Shown piece by piece: positions 58,422 through 60,899 of a stretch of DNA of 64,000 bases. The stretch's first letter is position 1, and the number at the start of each line of letters is the position of its first letter. The DNA is from an uncultured Candidatus Saccharibacteria bacterium. Its GTDB lineage: Bacteria; Patescibacteriota; Minisyncoccia; Minisyncoccales; UBA10102. The notes under the pieces are model-generated. The model was not told the origin of the DNA. It did not search any database and worked only from the letters and a program-made list of their open reading frames with translations. The position numbers and the translations under genes were made by a program. Location of the stretch: contig CAYHVI010000002.1 of the NCBI GenBank assembly GCA_964359655.1, forward strand, positions 176-64,175, read 5' to 3'.

Positions 58422-58481
58422 TAAATGTCAAGATTCTGGACGCTTTTGGCATAGGCTTGTATGAATTTTTTGCGCGGTAAA
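58422..58481 (-). repeat. Orphan perfect 60-bp copy of the gyrB 3' end (last 19 codons plus stop region)
   Basis: Identical to 58930-58989. The stop here reads TAG, whereas the functional copy reads TAA. Confidence 0.9.
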
Positions 58482-58488
58482 CATTCCC

Positions 58489-58605
58489 CTATCGTTTAAA
58501 CTTCTTGAGGAAATCTCGTATATACTTTGGATCATAAAATAACACCACCCCAAACATAAGGGAAATAGAGATTGTGGCGATAATATAAAGAGTCGTATCG
58601 CTCAT
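58489..58605 (-). CDS. Mini membrane protein (38 aa), third gene of the cassette
   Basis: Own translation: MSDTTLYIIATISISLMFGVVLFYDPKYIRDFLKKFKR. Confidence 0.4.
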   Translation of the reverse strand: MSDTTLYIIATISISLMFGVVLFYDPKYIRDFLKKFKR

Positions 58606-58610
58606 ACGCT

Positions 58611-58697
58611 TTATGTTTGCTTGGCATGCCTTACCCAAATATAAAGCATCGTTCCAATCATTCCAAAAATAAGATACGCAATAATAAGTTGTTGCAT
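58611..58697 (-). CDS. Mini membrane protein (28 aa), second gene of the cassette
   Basis: Own translation: MQQLIIAYLIFGMIGTMLYIWVRHAKQT. The ATG lies 1 nt after the stop of the 76-aa ORF. Confidence 0.4.
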   Translation of the reverse strand: MQQLIIAYLIFGMIGTMLYIWVRHAKQT

Positions 58698-58698
58698 A

Positions 58699-58929
58699 TT
58701 ATTTAAGAATATAAATACTTATAAGGAGGAAAAAAATTGTTACGGCTGATCCTACAACGAAGGCAGGAAGAGTAATCGGCCCAACTCCAACAGGGATAAA
58801 AAATCCAATTACAACAGAAGCAGCCAATATTTTGGAGATATCTGCGGAATATCCAGAAAGATTCTCAATCTGTTTTTCGTTCAACGCCATAGAATTCAAC
58901 CCCATTTTTATTTTACCCCTAGAATTCAT
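58699..58929 (-). CDS. Small membrane protein (76 aa or shorter), first gene of the cassette
   Basis: The ATG overlaps the gyrB stop (TAATG). Two TM segments in the C-terminal half. Confidence 0.5.
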   Translation of the reverse strand: MNSRGKIKMGLNSMALNEKQIENLSGYSADISKILAASVVIGFFIPVGVGPITLPAFVVGSAVTIFFLLISIYILK

Positions 58930-60899
58930 TAAATGTCAAGATTCTGGACGCTTTTGGCATAGGCTTGTATGAATTTTTTGCGCGGTAAAACTTCGTCGCC
59001 CATAAGCACGTCAAAAATGTGATCTGCTTCTTTTGCGTTCTCAATGTTTACCTGCAGCAAAACCCGGTTCTCTGGATTCATCGTTGTAATCCATAGTTGA
59101 TCGGCATTCATCTCGCCCAATCCTTTATACCGTTGGATGTTGAGCCCCGAAATTTTTTCTGCGTCTTGTTCTTGGGATTTTGACCTCTTTTCTTTCCGAA
59201 GGCGATCCAAAATTCTTTCTTTTTCCCCTTCGGTATAAGCATAATCAATGTTTTTTCCTGTCTGAATGCTGTAAAGCGGTGGCTGGGCAATGTACAAATA
59301 CCCACGTTCAATCACGGGTTTAAAATAGCGGTAAAACAAAGTTAAGAGAAGGGCGCGTATATGGGAGCCGTCCACATCGGCATCAGTCATAATGATGATC
59401 CGTCGATACCGGACTTTTTCGATGTCAAAATCTTCAGCAATGGCAGCACCCATTGCTATGACAAGATTGCGGATTTGTTCTGACGTTAAAATTTTGTCGA
59501 GCCGCGCCCGCTCCACATTGAGAATTTTTCCGCGAAGCGGCAAAATTGCTTGGAAACGGCGATCGCGCGCCTGCTTGGCAGAACCTCCGGCGGATTGTCC
59601 TTCCACCAAATAGAGTTCTGATTCTTCGGGATCTCGCGAAGAGCAGTCCGCAAGCTTTCCAGGCAAAGTCAATCCTTCCAAAATTCCTTTTCGCAATACG
59701 GTTTGTCGGGCTGCCTTGGCTGCTTTTCTTGCTTTTGAGGCTAAAAGTGATTTTTCGGCTATGGCGCGAGCATCCTGCGGATTGCGCTCGAAAAAATCAG
59801 CAAGAGCTTCTGCCACTACGGTTTCCACGGCAGACTTTACTTCCGGATTGCCGAGTTTTGCCTTGGTCTGTCCTTCAAACTGCGGGTCCTTAATTTTCAC
59901 TGATATCACGGCCGTCATCCCCTCTCTGACGTCGTCTCCTGTGAGCGATTCTTCATTCTTCAAAAGACTGCTTTTCTTTACATAATCATTGAGCATTCGA
60001 GTTAAAGCGGAACGAAACCCAGTAATATGAGTGCCGCCTTCTGTATTGTGAATATTGTTTGCAAACCCTTCTTCATAAATATCAAATTCTTCGGTGTAGC
60101 GCATTGCAACTTCAACCAAAATTTCATCCTTTTCTCCCTTTGCGTAAAAAATGTTGTCATGTTTAGGAGTAACGCCTTGGGTAAGATACTTCACATAGGA
60201 AGTTAAACCTCCCTGGAAATAAAACGTGTAGCTCTCGCTTCCGCCTTTGGCGGATTCTCGCGCGTCAAGAAACGTGAGTTTCACGCCAGAGGTAAGATAT
60301 GCCTGTTGACGCAAGTGCTGCAAAATTCGTTTGGTGTCGAATTCAATTTCTTTGAAAATTTCGCGATCCGGTTCAAACAAAATAGTAGTACCGACTTGTT
60401 TAGAGGACCCTATTTTCTTTACTTGAGATTTAGGTTTGCCGCGACTGTATTCCTGCTGATACTGGGCGCCATCGCGAAAAACCTCGGCTTTTAAGTAAAT
60501 GGAAAGAGCGTTCACCACTGATACGCCTACGCCATGCAAGCCTCCTGAAATTTTGTAGGCTCCCCCTCCAAATTTTCCTCCTGCATGAAGAATGGTGAGT
60601 ACGGTTTCCAAGGTTGATTTTTTTGTTTGAGGATGCTTTTCAACGGGAATTCCGCGGCCGTCATCGGAAACTTTTACCCGATTGCTGGGTAAAAGAGTGA
60701 TTTGAATATTTTTTGCGTAACCTGCCATCGCCTCGTCTAAGCTGTTGTCGAGCACTTCCCAGATTAAGTGATGCAAGCCATCTGGCCCCGTGGAACCAAT
60801 ATACATTCCCGGCCTTTTGCGCACCGGATCCAAGCCTTCCAAAACCTGGATGTCTTTGGCAGTATAATTATTTTGTGATTTTGTTGTTTGTTTTTTCAT
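58929..60899 (-). CDS. gyrB: DNA gyrase subunit B
   Basis: [18 protein letters not shown] ATPase, Toprim (EGDSAGG-like [13 protein letters not shown]). Start MKKQ forms an ATGA overlap with the pheT stop. Confidence 0.96.

What the first reader, a model, noticed from the sequence alone, without database searches (positions are those of the whole stretch)
58422..58989. Perfect 60-bp duplication of the gyrB 3' end flanks a 448-bp cassette of three coupled mini-membrane proteins
58422-58481 and 58930-58989 are identical. They cover the last 19 gyrB codons plus part of the stop, and the orphan copy reads TAG where the functional copy reads TAA. Between them lie only three tightly coupled ORFs (76, 28 and 38 aa, all hydrophobic). 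The first starts in a TAATG overlap with the gyrB stop, so the cassette is probably co-translated with an essential gene. This looks like site-specific insertion into a gene's 3' end with target restoration, but without any recombinase. It may be a mini mobile cassette or the remnant of a larger element.
Basis: seen in the sequence. Interest (0 to 1): 0.65.

Follow-up and report, generated by a model that had tools for sequence, protein, structure and literature searches.

The report
Duplicated gyrB end brackets inserted mini-operon
In a groundwater Patescibacteria genome, a small operon for three tiny membrane proteins lies between gyrB and secE, bracketed by two identical 60-bp copies of the gyrB end; one copy completes gyrB and the other is the displaced original end, which probably still carries the secE promoter, so this is a clean insertion footprint and not a demonstrable mobile element.

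Summary
58422-58481 and 58930-58989 are identical (0 expected by chance) and flank 448 bp. The arrangement recurs in three other datasets.

At least ten related Patescibacteria lineages have gyrB followed directly by a 66-97 nt spacer and secE. The window's orphan copy (TAG stop), with its 69-nt spacer, promoter-like boxes and hairpin, is orthologous to that ancestral junction. It is the displaced original gyrB end.

The insert is a conserved three-gene operon. ORF1 is a divergent DUF6722 two-helix membrane protein, followed by two single-pass peptides. The operon also occurs in housekeeping contexts elsewhere, without repeats or recombinases. ORF1's conserved start is 58890 (63 aa), not the TAATG overlap. 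Each repeat copy supplies a TTGACA -35 box (gyrB codons Leu-Asp-Ile) for a promoter-like site, one upstream of the module and one upstream of secE.

Two relatives (L096, L083) carry the module at the same junction with only a 10-14 nt gyrB remnant. The module is about 17-19% diverged between lineages, yet the window's repeat is perfect, so the 60-bp duplication is recent or homogenised.

The mechanism is unresolved. The candidates are templated copying, unequal exchange and Campbell-type recombination. No integrase, inverted repeats or viral link were found. Interest is moderate.

The parts
58929..60914 (-). gyrB (661 aa), intact; stop TAA at 58929-58931
   Evidence: Pfam HATPase_c, DNA_gyraseB, Toprim and DNA_gyraseB_C. 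The C-terminus ...[20 protein letters not shown] matches relatives.
58930..58989 (-). Upstream repeat copy: the functional last 19 codons of gyrB plus 'TA' of the stop
   Evidence: Exact 60-nt repeat; in frame with the gyrB body.
58910..58939 (-). Promoter-like site for the module: -35 TTGACA (58934-58939, the gyrB codons Leu-Asp-Ile inside the repeat), 18-nt spacer, -10 TAAAAT (58910-58915)
   Evidence: 11/12 match to consensus. An equivalent promoter lies at the same distance from ORF1 in L096 and L083, and promoters sit directly upstream of ORF1 in L084, L101 and L102. Function is inferred, not measured.
58482..58929 (-). The 448-nt insert, absent from empty-site relatives
   Evidence: Alignment A3; empty sites in L085-L092, L095, L104, L105 and L004.
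58699..58890 (-). ORF1, 63 aa, two-helix membrane protein, a divergent member of the DUF6722-like family (the extended 76-aa reading runs to 58929)
   Evidence: Homologues at 94%, 81% and 43-52% identity. 86 family representatives, nearly all 63-70 aa, match from residue 1. 28 of 50 members hit PF20482. AF2 gives a helical hairpin with pLDDT 94.
58611..58697 (-). ORF2, 28 aa, single-pass membrane peptide, starting 1 nt after the ORF1 stop
   Evidence: Conserved in L096 (81%), L083 (79%), L084, L097 and L101 in the same order; Kyte-Doolittle 19-residue maximum 2.18.
58489..58605 (-). ORF3, 38 aa from its ATG, single-pass membrane peptide with a basic C-terminal tail
   Evidence: Conserved in L096 and L083 (89%) and more weakly in L084, L097 and L099-L103.
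58422..58481 (-). Downstream (orphan) repeat copy: the displaced ancestral gyrB end, now non-coding
   Evidence: Identical to 58930-58989. Followed by G, giving the TAG stop seen in the overlap-type relatives L095, L004, L106 and L096. No ORF of 20 aa or more in the gyrB frame.
58403..58431 (-). Promoter-like site for secE-nusG: -35 TTGACA (58426-58431, inside the orphan copy), 17-nt spacer, TG-extended -10 TATGCT (58403-58408)
   Evidence: 10/12 match with an extended -10. Both boxes are conserved in position in L095, L096, L086 and L083 while the spacer varies. Function is inferred.
58352..58420 (-). Ancestral 69-nt gyrB-secE spacer, including GGAGG and the hairpin AAGGCCT-CCTG-AGGCCTT plus U-run (58366-58386)
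   Evidence: Collinear with the 66-nt spacer of empty-site L095 and the spacer of L096. The hairpin is conserved in 9 lineages with some compensatory pairs.
58142..58351 (-). secE (69 aa), followed by nusG and rplK
   Evidence: Pfam SecE E=4.8e-18; the gene order gyrB-secE-nusG-rplK is conserved in relatives.

Best explanation
The repeat is a duplicated gene end that also acts as a promoter junction. It brackets an old chromosomal insert, and in this lineage it was lengthened recently.

Shown:
- Ancestrally, gyrB was followed after 66-97 nt by secE. In several lineages the last gyrB codons plus stop (CTT GAC ATY TAG) contain the TTGACA of a promoter-like site upstream of secE.
- In the window, a 448-nt operon of three tiny membrane proteins lies in that junction.
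- The upstream 60-nt copy completes gyrB, and its stop becomes TAA through the first base of the insert.
- The downstream copy keeps the ancestral TAG, the spacer, the -10 box and the hairpin, and is no longer translated.
- Two other lineages (L096, L083) have the same module ending at the same point (...AATG or ...AAGG) directly before the secE promoter. There, only 10-14 nt of the gyrB end (CTTGACATYTAGGT) are duplicated.

Inferred:
- Each repeat copy supplies the -35 box of a working promoter. The module is therefore its own transcription unit, with ORF1 starting at 58890, and secE-nusG keeps its native promoter.
- The module entered this junction long ago with a short duplication.
- The window's lineage later copied 48 more nucleotides of the gyrB end from 508 nt upstream to the site next to the pre-existing 12-nt remnant. 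This could have happened by template switching, or by unequal exchange followed by deletion. Either route explains why the two copies are still identical.
- The two copies can recombine to delete the module precisely.
For: Exact repeat with 0 expected by chance. Empty sites in at least ten relatives, with the orphan-plus-spacer collinear with the L095 and L096 junctions, including the TAG stop, -35, -10, GGAGG and hairpin. The module is conserved as a 3-gene unit in 10 loci. The distant ones lie in housekeeping contexts (rpsO/pnp, folD/parB/relA, polA) with no repeats or recombinases. L096 has a 14-nt direct repeat CTTGACAT(T/C)TAGGT flanking its insert, and the same right-hand module end...AATG, as the window. 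Module nt identity between lineages is 81-83%, about the same as nusG at 79-81%. The gyrB 3' 93 nt are 77-81% identical between lineages, yet the window's two copies are 60/60 identical. Promoter-like sites upstream of ORF1 are conserved in position across lineages. ORF1 family members start at the internal Met. Other lineages also show small duplications of the same gyrB end: 15 nt directly after the stop in the L086 group, 14/15 identical to the window's gyrB end.
Against: No transcription data exist, so both promoters are consensus matches supported only by positional conservation. In some relatives (L104, L012, L106) a separate promoter follows the stop, so the overlap of the -35 box with gyrB is not universal. 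Filled and empty lineages are interspersed in the tree: L096 is sister to empty L095 at 86% bootstrap. 'One old insertion' therefore needs at least two precise losses or lateral exchange. A templated 48-nt copy needs two template switches or two successive rearrangements. A single Campbell-type crossover of a circle that carries the 60 nt yields the same product in one step. The left-hand junctions of the window, L096 and L083 share no detectable homology upstream of the -10 box.
Confidence: 0.45

Rival explanations
1. Campbell-type insertion of a circular cassette, with the repeats acting as att sites. A circular DNA of about 508 bp or more, carrying the module and a copy of the last 60 nt of gyrB, recombined once with the chromosomal gyrB end. 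The crossover was made either by a site-specific integrase supplied in trans (a decayed integrative element, i.e. CIME-like) or by RecA on the 60-nt homology, for example after DNA uptake. The two repeats are attL and attR, and the cassette can still excise and re-integrate.
For: The product has exactly the classical architecture: gene body, restored 3' end, cargo, displaced original 3' end, then the original downstream DNA. It needs only one step and explains the perfect identity. The presence/absence pattern is interspersed among close lineages. L096 carries a separate ~93-nt orphan gyrB 3' fragment next to GC-rich foreign-looking DNA. If gyrB is intact elsewhere in that genome, this is a second, independent long duplication of the same gene end. 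The CIME definition (att-flanked, with integration and transfer genes lost) fits formally (PMC5704250; compare ssrA islands without integration modules, PMC3146451). Short-patch recombination between co-existing strains is visible.
Against: No integrase or transposase was found in the cassette, in the ~6 kb on each side, among ten unassigned window ORFs, in any of the roughly 25 related gyrB-secE junctions, or next to any of the 10 module loci. No viral contig carries the module or an orphan gyrB end. The cargo is a conserved chromosomal operon, as diverged between lineages as housekeeping genes. That argues against recent lateral arrival. The right-hand module boundary is shared with L096 and L083, whose gyrB remnant is only 10-14 nt, too short for RecA and different from 60 nt. 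No empty allele or circle junction was seen in four assemblies of this species.
Confidence: 0.27
2. An old duplication of 60 nt or more, kept identical by gene conversion. The original insertion, in the common ancestor of the window, L096 and L083 lineages, created a long duplication of the gyrB end. The L096/L083 branch trimmed the orphan to the 12 nt that hold the -35 box. In the window's lineage the two copies evolve in concert.
For: The right-hand module boundary is shared in all three lineages. L096 and L083 are each other's closest relatives in secE and nusG (85-87% nt identity), so a single 48-nt deletion suffices. Long repeats would explain precise loss in L095 and the L086 group. Short-patch conversion is active in the population.
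Against: It requires sustained conversion between 60-nt repeats over a period in which the same 93 nt diverged about 20% between lineages, while deletion of the module between those repeats is avoided. There is no direct evidence.
Confidence: 0.13
3. Assembly-level misrepresentation. The true molecules are an empty chromosome plus a separate 508-bp circle, or a tandem array of the 508-bp unit that was collapsed. A 60-nt repeat exceeds the k-mer sizes of short-read assemblers.
For: All available assemblies are short-read and about 5x coverage. The k=31 Logan contig breaks at the repeat. k-mers of 60 or fewer cannot distinguish these topologies.
Against: Two independent SPAdes-style assemblies of replicate samples, plus the source contig of the window, resolve the same path with identical sequence. 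The junction ...GGGGAATG|TTTACC... must exist in real reads under every topology, so the duplication of the gyrB end is real in any case. A 508-bp replicon is implausible.
Confidence: 0.05

Closest known systems
CIMEs (cis-mobilizable elements): decayed integrative elements that retain attL and attR at the 3' end of a target gene (PMC5704250; ssrA islands without integration modules in Dehalococcoides, PMC3146451)
   Same: Direct repeats made from the 3' end of an essential single-copy gene. The gene is restored by the upstream copy, and the displaced end adjoins the original downstream DNA. There is no integrase inside. The site is variable among relatives.
   Different: No cognate integrase or intact parent element was found anywhere in this clade. 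The cargo is a conserved chromosomal operon as diverged as housekeeping genes. Related lineages have the same insert with only a 10-14 nt duplication. The target is a protein-coding gene end that overlaps a promoter, not a tRNA or tmRNA gene.
Campbell-type (single-crossover) integration, as with suicide plasmids or circularised DNA
   Same: It duplicates exactly the homologous segment on both sides of the inserted DNA. It is reversible by recombination between the repeats and needs no dedicated recombinase.
   Different: 60 nt is near the lower limit for RecA-dependent exchange. No circular intermediate was observed, and the natural source of such a circle is unknown.
Templated insertions and tandem duplications by template switching or unequal exchange at microhomology
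   Same: A local sequence 508 nt away is copied next to a pre-existing 12-nt identical patch. The copy is perfectly identical. GAA microhomology lies at the far boundary. Small tandem duplications of the same gyrB end occur in other lineages.
   Different: It needs two switches or two steps. The result happens to mimic an att-flanked island.
Transposon, MITE or IS target-site duplication
   Same: A direct repeat of target sequence flanks an insert.
   Different: The repeat is 60 nt, not 2-14 nt. There are no terminal inverted repeats, no transposase, and only a single copy.
Pfam DUF6722 (PF20482), small bacterial membrane proteins of unknown function
   Same: ORF1's family overlaps it: 28 of 50 relatives match. 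Size (~63-70 aa) and the two-helix hairpin agree.
   Different: The window's ORF1 itself does not reach any Pfam threshold. The conserved linkage to two downstream single-pass peptides does not appear in the 7.7 million open-access papers and 0.34 million preprints searched.

Membership tests
CIME / decayed integrative element | Flanked by attL and attR direct repeats that include the 3' end of the target gene | tested here: met
   60/60-nt direct repeat of the gyrB end. The downstream copy adjoins the ancestral spacer. Definition from PMC5704250.
CIME / decayed integrative element | Has lost its own integration and transfer genes | tested here: met
   The 448 nt hold only three small membrane ORFs. 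There is no recombinase within ~6 kb or among ten unassigned window ORFs.
CIME / decayed integrative element | Derives from, or co-occurs with, an integrase-bearing ICE, IME or prophage that uses the same att site | tested here: not met
   None found in about 25 related gyrB-secE junctions, in 10 module loci, or in 3 viral scans. Sampling is limited to contigs and to one 64-kb window of this genome.
CIME / decayed integrative element | att sites are recombined by an integrase in trans (excision, accretion) | not testable with these tools
   Needs reads or experiments. No empty allele was seen in four assemblies.
Transposable element (IS / MITE) | Short target-site duplication of fixed length | tested here: not met
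   The duplication is 60 nt in the window and 14 nt in L096.
Transposable element (IS / MITE) | Terminal inverted repeats | tested here: not met
   The ends of the insert match at 10/30 positions when reverse-complemented. No inverted repeat lies at the ends.
Transposable element (IS / MITE) | Multiple copies per genome | tested here: not met
   There is a single copy of the module and of each junction in the 64-kb window. The rest of the genome was not seen.
Integron gene cassette | attC recombination site and association with an integron integrase or attI | tested here: not met
   The repeat is a gene end, not an imperfect palindrome. No integrase was found and there are no Rfam hits.
Campbell-type homologous integration | The duplicated segment equals the shared homology. 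One copy joins the upstream gene body and the other joins the original downstream DNA. | tested here: met
Campbell-type homologous integration | A circular donor molecule carrying the homology | not testable with these tools
   Would need read-level or PCR detection of the ...GGGGAATG|TTTACC... junction outside the chromosome.
Pfam DUF6722 (ORF1) | Significant match to PF20482 | tested here: inconclusive
   The window's ORF1 has no Pfam hit at E<=1. 28 of 50 aligned family members hit PF20482, best E=3.9e-8.
   PHROGs best E=0.011, to families of unknown function. NCBIfam gives nothing. All fold-search hits have E>0.5. There are no viral loci. PADLOC was not run.

The most novel reading that the evidence does not exclude
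The 60-nt repeat is a working, recombinase-free att site. The three-gene cassette flips out as a ~508-bp circle and back in (or into competent relatives) by RecA-type exchange on a duplicated essential-gene terminus that also carries the promoter -35 box. On this reading the gyrB end is a recurrent docking site for DNA in this Patescibacteria clade. The window's 60-nt copy, the ~93-nt orphan plus 14-nt repeat in L096, and the 15-nt vestiges in the L086 group would all be footprints of the same process.
Probability: 0.15. Interest if true: 0.7.

Novelty: new variant of a known kind. Interest (0 to 1): 0.4.

Why it matters
This is a well-resolved natural case of how DNA can be inserted at the end of an essential gene whose last codons probably double as the promoter of the next essential operon. 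Duplicating the shared segment lets gyrB keep its C-terminus and lets secE-nusG keep its -35 box, while the newcomer borrows the other copy.

It also defines a conserved three-gene operon of very small membrane proteins in Patescibacteria: a DUF6722-like hairpin protein plus two single-pass peptides. Gene callers mostly miss the two peptides, and the operon's function is unknown.

If the repeats proved to be recombinationally active, this would be an unusually small cassette that moves without its own recombinase, in a phylum with very few described mobile elements. Practically, the case shows that an att-like architecture alone is not evidence of a mobile element.

Tried and rejected
- The three peptides were run against Pfam, PHROGs and NCBIfam. 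There were no significant hits for the window's own proteins.
- ORF1 was modelled with AF2 and searched with Foldseek against the PDB. It is a confident helical hairpin, but only generic matches appeared, all with E>0.5.
- Three viral-contig scans found nothing. They used the exact repeat, the ORF1 profile, and a degenerate gyrB 3'-end pattern that does recover all gyrB ends in my loci.
- I looked for gyrB 3' duplications in L003, L004, L006, L007, L008, L012 and L016. None was found, although their gyrB-secE gaps hold unrelated genes, including a prepilin-like gene, a 252-aa hypothetical gene and lysS.
- The idea that L083 keeps a decayed gyrB remnant upstream of its module was rejected. Local alignment against six gyrB ends gave p = 0.03-0.7 relative to shuffles.
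- L090 at first looked like a second kind of insert. It is an ordinary empty site with a scaffold gap inside gyrB.
- The recombinase search in the window found cysS, hsdS, an N6-methylase, yceG, DAHP synthase and thrS, plus four ORFs with no hit.
- I tested whether the ORF-poor stretch at 30.7-39.5 kb is an element with a reassigned stop codon that could hide an integrase. No code rescues long ORFs there.
- Literature searches: no paper mentions DUF6722. One query had bad syntax.
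Full report
**1. The observation**

Positions 58422-58481 and 58930-58989 are identical over 60 nt. They are the only two matches in the 64-kb window even with three mismatches allowed, and none occurred in 100 dinucleotide-preserving shuffles. The similarity continues for five more bases with two mismatches.

All the genes involved lie on the minus strand. gyrB is 58929-60914 (661 aa, four GyrB Pfam domains). secE is 58142-58351, followed by nusG and rplK.

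Read on the coding strand, the repeat begins at the third base of a Val codon. It runs through the last 19 gyrB codons ([19 protein letters not shown]) and ends after the 'TA' of the stop. The next base is A at the gyrB copy (TAA) and G at the orphan copy (TAG). The 448 nt between the copies (58482-58929) contain three closely spaced ORFs, all strongly hydrophobic.

**2. Is it an assembly artefact?**

Two independent assemblies of replicate 0.1-um filter samples from Hainich groundwater well H51 (L001 and L002) contain both repeat copies and the cassette. They have no difference from the window in this region. A Logan contig from another run (L109) is 1810/1810 identical. It starts at window position 58451, exactly 30 nt into the orphan copy, which is where a k=31 unitig must break at an exact repeat.

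The junction ...GGGGAATG|TTTACC... therefore exists in real reads. Only read-level or long-read data could exclude a collapsed tandem array, or an empty chromosome plus a small circle. I rate that at about 5%.

**3. Empty-site test**

GyrB, SecE and NusG place the organism in Patescibacteria/Parcubacteria. The closest reference GyrB is 76% identical.

The order pheT-gyrB-secE-nusG-rplK is conserved in relatives. At least ten lineages or contigs have gyrB followed by secE after only about 20-100 nt. These are L004, L007, L012, L085, L086, L088-L092, L095, L104 and L105.

In L095, gyrB ends ...AACCTTGACATCTAG and is followed by 66 nt containing TACTAT, GGAGGC, the hairpin AAGGCCTCC..GGCCTT and TTTTTAAA before the secE ATG. 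The window's orphan copy ends ...AATCTTGACATTTAG and is followed by 69 nt with the same elements in the same order. TAG is also the stop in the other relatives whose gyrB end carries TTGACA: L004, L106, and both copies in L096.

The orphan copy is therefore the original gyrB end, still attached to its original downstream DNA. The functional copy acquired TAA from the first base of the insert.

**4. What the insert is**

ORF1 has homologues at 94% (L096), 81% (L083) and 43-52% identity (L084, L097-L103). In most of these loci ORF1 is followed by recognisable homologues of ORF2 and/or ORF3 in the same order. In the loci where all three genes are resolved they are separated by similarly tiny gaps. 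L100 shows only ORF1.

A profile search of 1.84 billion representatives found 86 family members. Almost all are 63-70 aa and align from residue 1 of the 63-aa form. The conserved ORF1 start is therefore the ATG at 58890, not the ATG overlapping the gyrB stop.

28 of 50 members match Pfam DUF6722, best E=3.9e-8, although the window's own protein does not. AF2 predicts a two-helix hairpin with pLDDT 94. Fold, phage-family and NCBIfam searches add nothing.

In distant lineages the module lies among housekeeping genes (rpsO/pnp, folD/parB/relA, polA). It has no flanking repeats and no recombinase there. It behaves as an ordinary, conserved operon of unknown function encoding three very small membrane proteins.

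**5. Promoters**

A sigma-70-like site lies directly upstream of ORF1 in the window (TTGACA-18-TAAAAT), in L096, L083, L084, L101 and L102, and -10 boxes alone are present in the rest. The -10 box ends 6-19 nt before the conserved ATG.

In the window the -35 hexamer of this site is the gyrB codon string cTT GAC Att, inside the upstream repeat copy. The same hexamer in the orphan copy sits 17 nt from a TG-extended TATGCT upstream of secE. Both boxes keep their positions in L095, L096, L086 and L083 while the spacer varies.

Each repeat copy thus probably supplies a -35 box, one for the module and one for secE-nusG. This rests on consensus matches and positional conservation, not on measurement. 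Some relatives (L104, L012, L106) have a separate promoter after the stop.

**6. Relatives that also carry the module at this junction**

L096 reads, in order:
- the end of an unrelated GC-rich gene (GC 0.59 against 0.42);
- an orphan ~93-nt gyrB 3' fragment ending in TAG;
- an extra 63-aa membrane ORF with a terminator-like hairpin;
- the module;
- ...ACAATG|CTTGACATCTAGGT, then a spacer 94% identical to that of empty-site L095;
- secE.

Its insert is flanked by a 14-nt direct repeat, CTTGACAT(T/C)TAGGT.

L083 has an unrelated upstream gene, then the module, then ...AAGG|CTTGACTTAT and secE. It has no significant gyrB remnant upstream.

All three lineages therefore share the right-hand boundary, where the module end runs straight into the gyrB-derived -35 segment and the secE promoter. 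They differ in how much of the gyrB end is present there: 60, 12-14 and about 10 nt. They share nothing upstream of the module's -10 box.

**7. Timing**

Nucleotide identity between the window and L096, L083, L095 and the L086 group is 79-81% in nusG (82% over the first 150 nt available for L083) and 70-75% in secE. It is 77-81% in the last 93 nt of gyrB for L096 and L095, and 73% for L086. The module is 81-83% identical between its three copies. The module has therefore diverged about as much as its host genes, which argues against recent lateral arrival from a sampled lineage. The window's two repeat copies, in contrast, are 60/60 identical. The 60-nt duplication is either much younger than the module's residence at this junction or is being homogenised.

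A NusG+L11+SecE tree puts the window, the L086 group, L095 and L096 in one 100%-supported clade. Filled L096 is sister to empty L095 (86%), and the window joins the empty L086 group only weakly (46%). Filled and empty states are interspersed. That requires either repeated gain or precise loss, which flanking direct repeats would promote.

The L086 group and L007 carry a vestigial second copy of the last gyrB codons immediately after the stop. In the L086 group it is AACCTTGACATTTAA, 14/15 identical to the window's gyrB end. This gene end has been duplicated repeatedly in the clade.

**8. Mechanism**

Several routes give the same product.

(a) My preferred reading (0.45) has three parts. First, the module has long been at this junction with a short duplication, as in L096. 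Second, the window's lineage recently copied 48 further nucleotides of the gyrB end from 508 nt upstream to the site next to the pre-existing 12-nt remnant. Third, the copying occurred by template switching (GAA microhomology lies at the far boundary), or by a 508-nt tandem duplication followed by deletion between the 12-nt repeats.

(b) A single Campbell-type crossover between the chromosome and a circle carrying the 60 nt plus the module, made either by an integrase in trans (CIME-like; definition in PMC5704250; analogous ssrA islands in PMC3146451) or by RecA (0.27). It is simpler mechanistically and fits the architecture perfectly. However, no integrase, parent element, circle, empty allele or viral relative was found.

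(c) An old duplication of 60 nt or more, kept identical by gene conversion and trimmed in the L096/L083 branch (0.13).

(d) An assembly topology error (0.05).

Patches of clustered synonymous differences between assemblies show that short-patch recombination between co-existing relatives does occur. One example is six changes within 22 nt of nusG that resemble the L083 allele. This keeps (b) and (c) alive.

**9. Verdict**

The proposed translational coupling to gyrB is not supported. The label 'mobile cassette' is not supported by any positive evidence. Neither is a holin-like role.

The closest known kinds are att-flanked recombinase-less islets (CIMEs), Campbell-type duplications, and templated local duplications. 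This case fails the CIME test that requires a cognate integrative element. I class it as a new variant of a known kind, of moderate interest.

Noticed in passing
L086:3902-3931 (same in L085, L088, L089, L091, L092, L105); L007 just after its gyrB stop: Directly after the gyrB stop (..AATTTGGATATCTGA) comes AACCTTGACATTTAA. This is a vestigial second copy of the last four codons plus stop, and it holds the TTGACA box. It is 14/15 identical to the window's gyrB end. It shows an independent small duplication of the same gene end, possibly a scar of a lost insert.
   Followed up: partly
L096:1-605: An orphan ~93-nt gyrB 3' fragment (275-367, TAG stop) is fused behind a GC-rich (0.59) unrelated gene end. 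It is followed by an extra 63-aa two-helix membrane ORF (414-605) that has no homologue in any fetched locus. This implies a second long duplication of the gyrB end if gyrB is intact elsewhere in that genome, or else a chimeric contig.
   Followed up: partly
window 58366-58408 (minus strand): A hairpin plus U-run lies between the secE promoter-like site and the secE start. It is conserved in nine lineages, with some compensatory pairs. In the window the upstream GGAGGU can instead pair with the GCCUCC of the hairpin's 5' arm. This may be a terminator/antiterminator leader controlling secE-nusG. The energy z-score is not significant.
   Followed up: partly
window 58043-58064 and 59589-59604: Differences between the window and other assemblies of the same species are clustered. 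Six synonymous changes lie within 22 nt of nusG in L002, resembling the L083 allele. Six changes lie within 16 nt of gyrB at the end of contig L001. This points to short-patch recombination or co-assembled strains.
   Followed up: partly
window 30700-39500: This stretch is ORF-poor for a compact genome. Its one long gene is a DAHP synthase (33467-34507), in a 1-kb window with 63% GC against a 44% background. There is no Rfam match at E<=1e-3. No stop-codon reassignment rescues ORFs. Unexplained.
   Followed up: partly
window 30648-30724: ARAGORN calls a tRNA-Ile (GAT) here, but Rfam's tRNA model does not report it at the gathering threshold or at E<=1e-3. It may be a degenerate or false tRNA, and it borders the ORF-poor stretch.
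   Followed up: no
window 14188-18335: Type I restriction-modification genes: a specificity subunit, an N6-adenine methylase with an HsdR-N-like domain, and an unassigned 319-aa ORF between them.
   Followed up: no
L084, L097, L100, L101, L102 upstream of ORF1: In distant lineages the -10 box of the module's promoter ends only 6-11 nt before the ORF1 ATG. This suggests leaderless or near-leaderless mRNAs for this small-protein operon.
   Followed up: no
GyrB relatives P0116, P0119, P0120, P0138, P0157, P0175, P0216, P0228: Several Patescibacteria GyrB C-terminal fragments carry an intein-splicing domain (PF14890). The window's GyrB does not.
   Followed up: no
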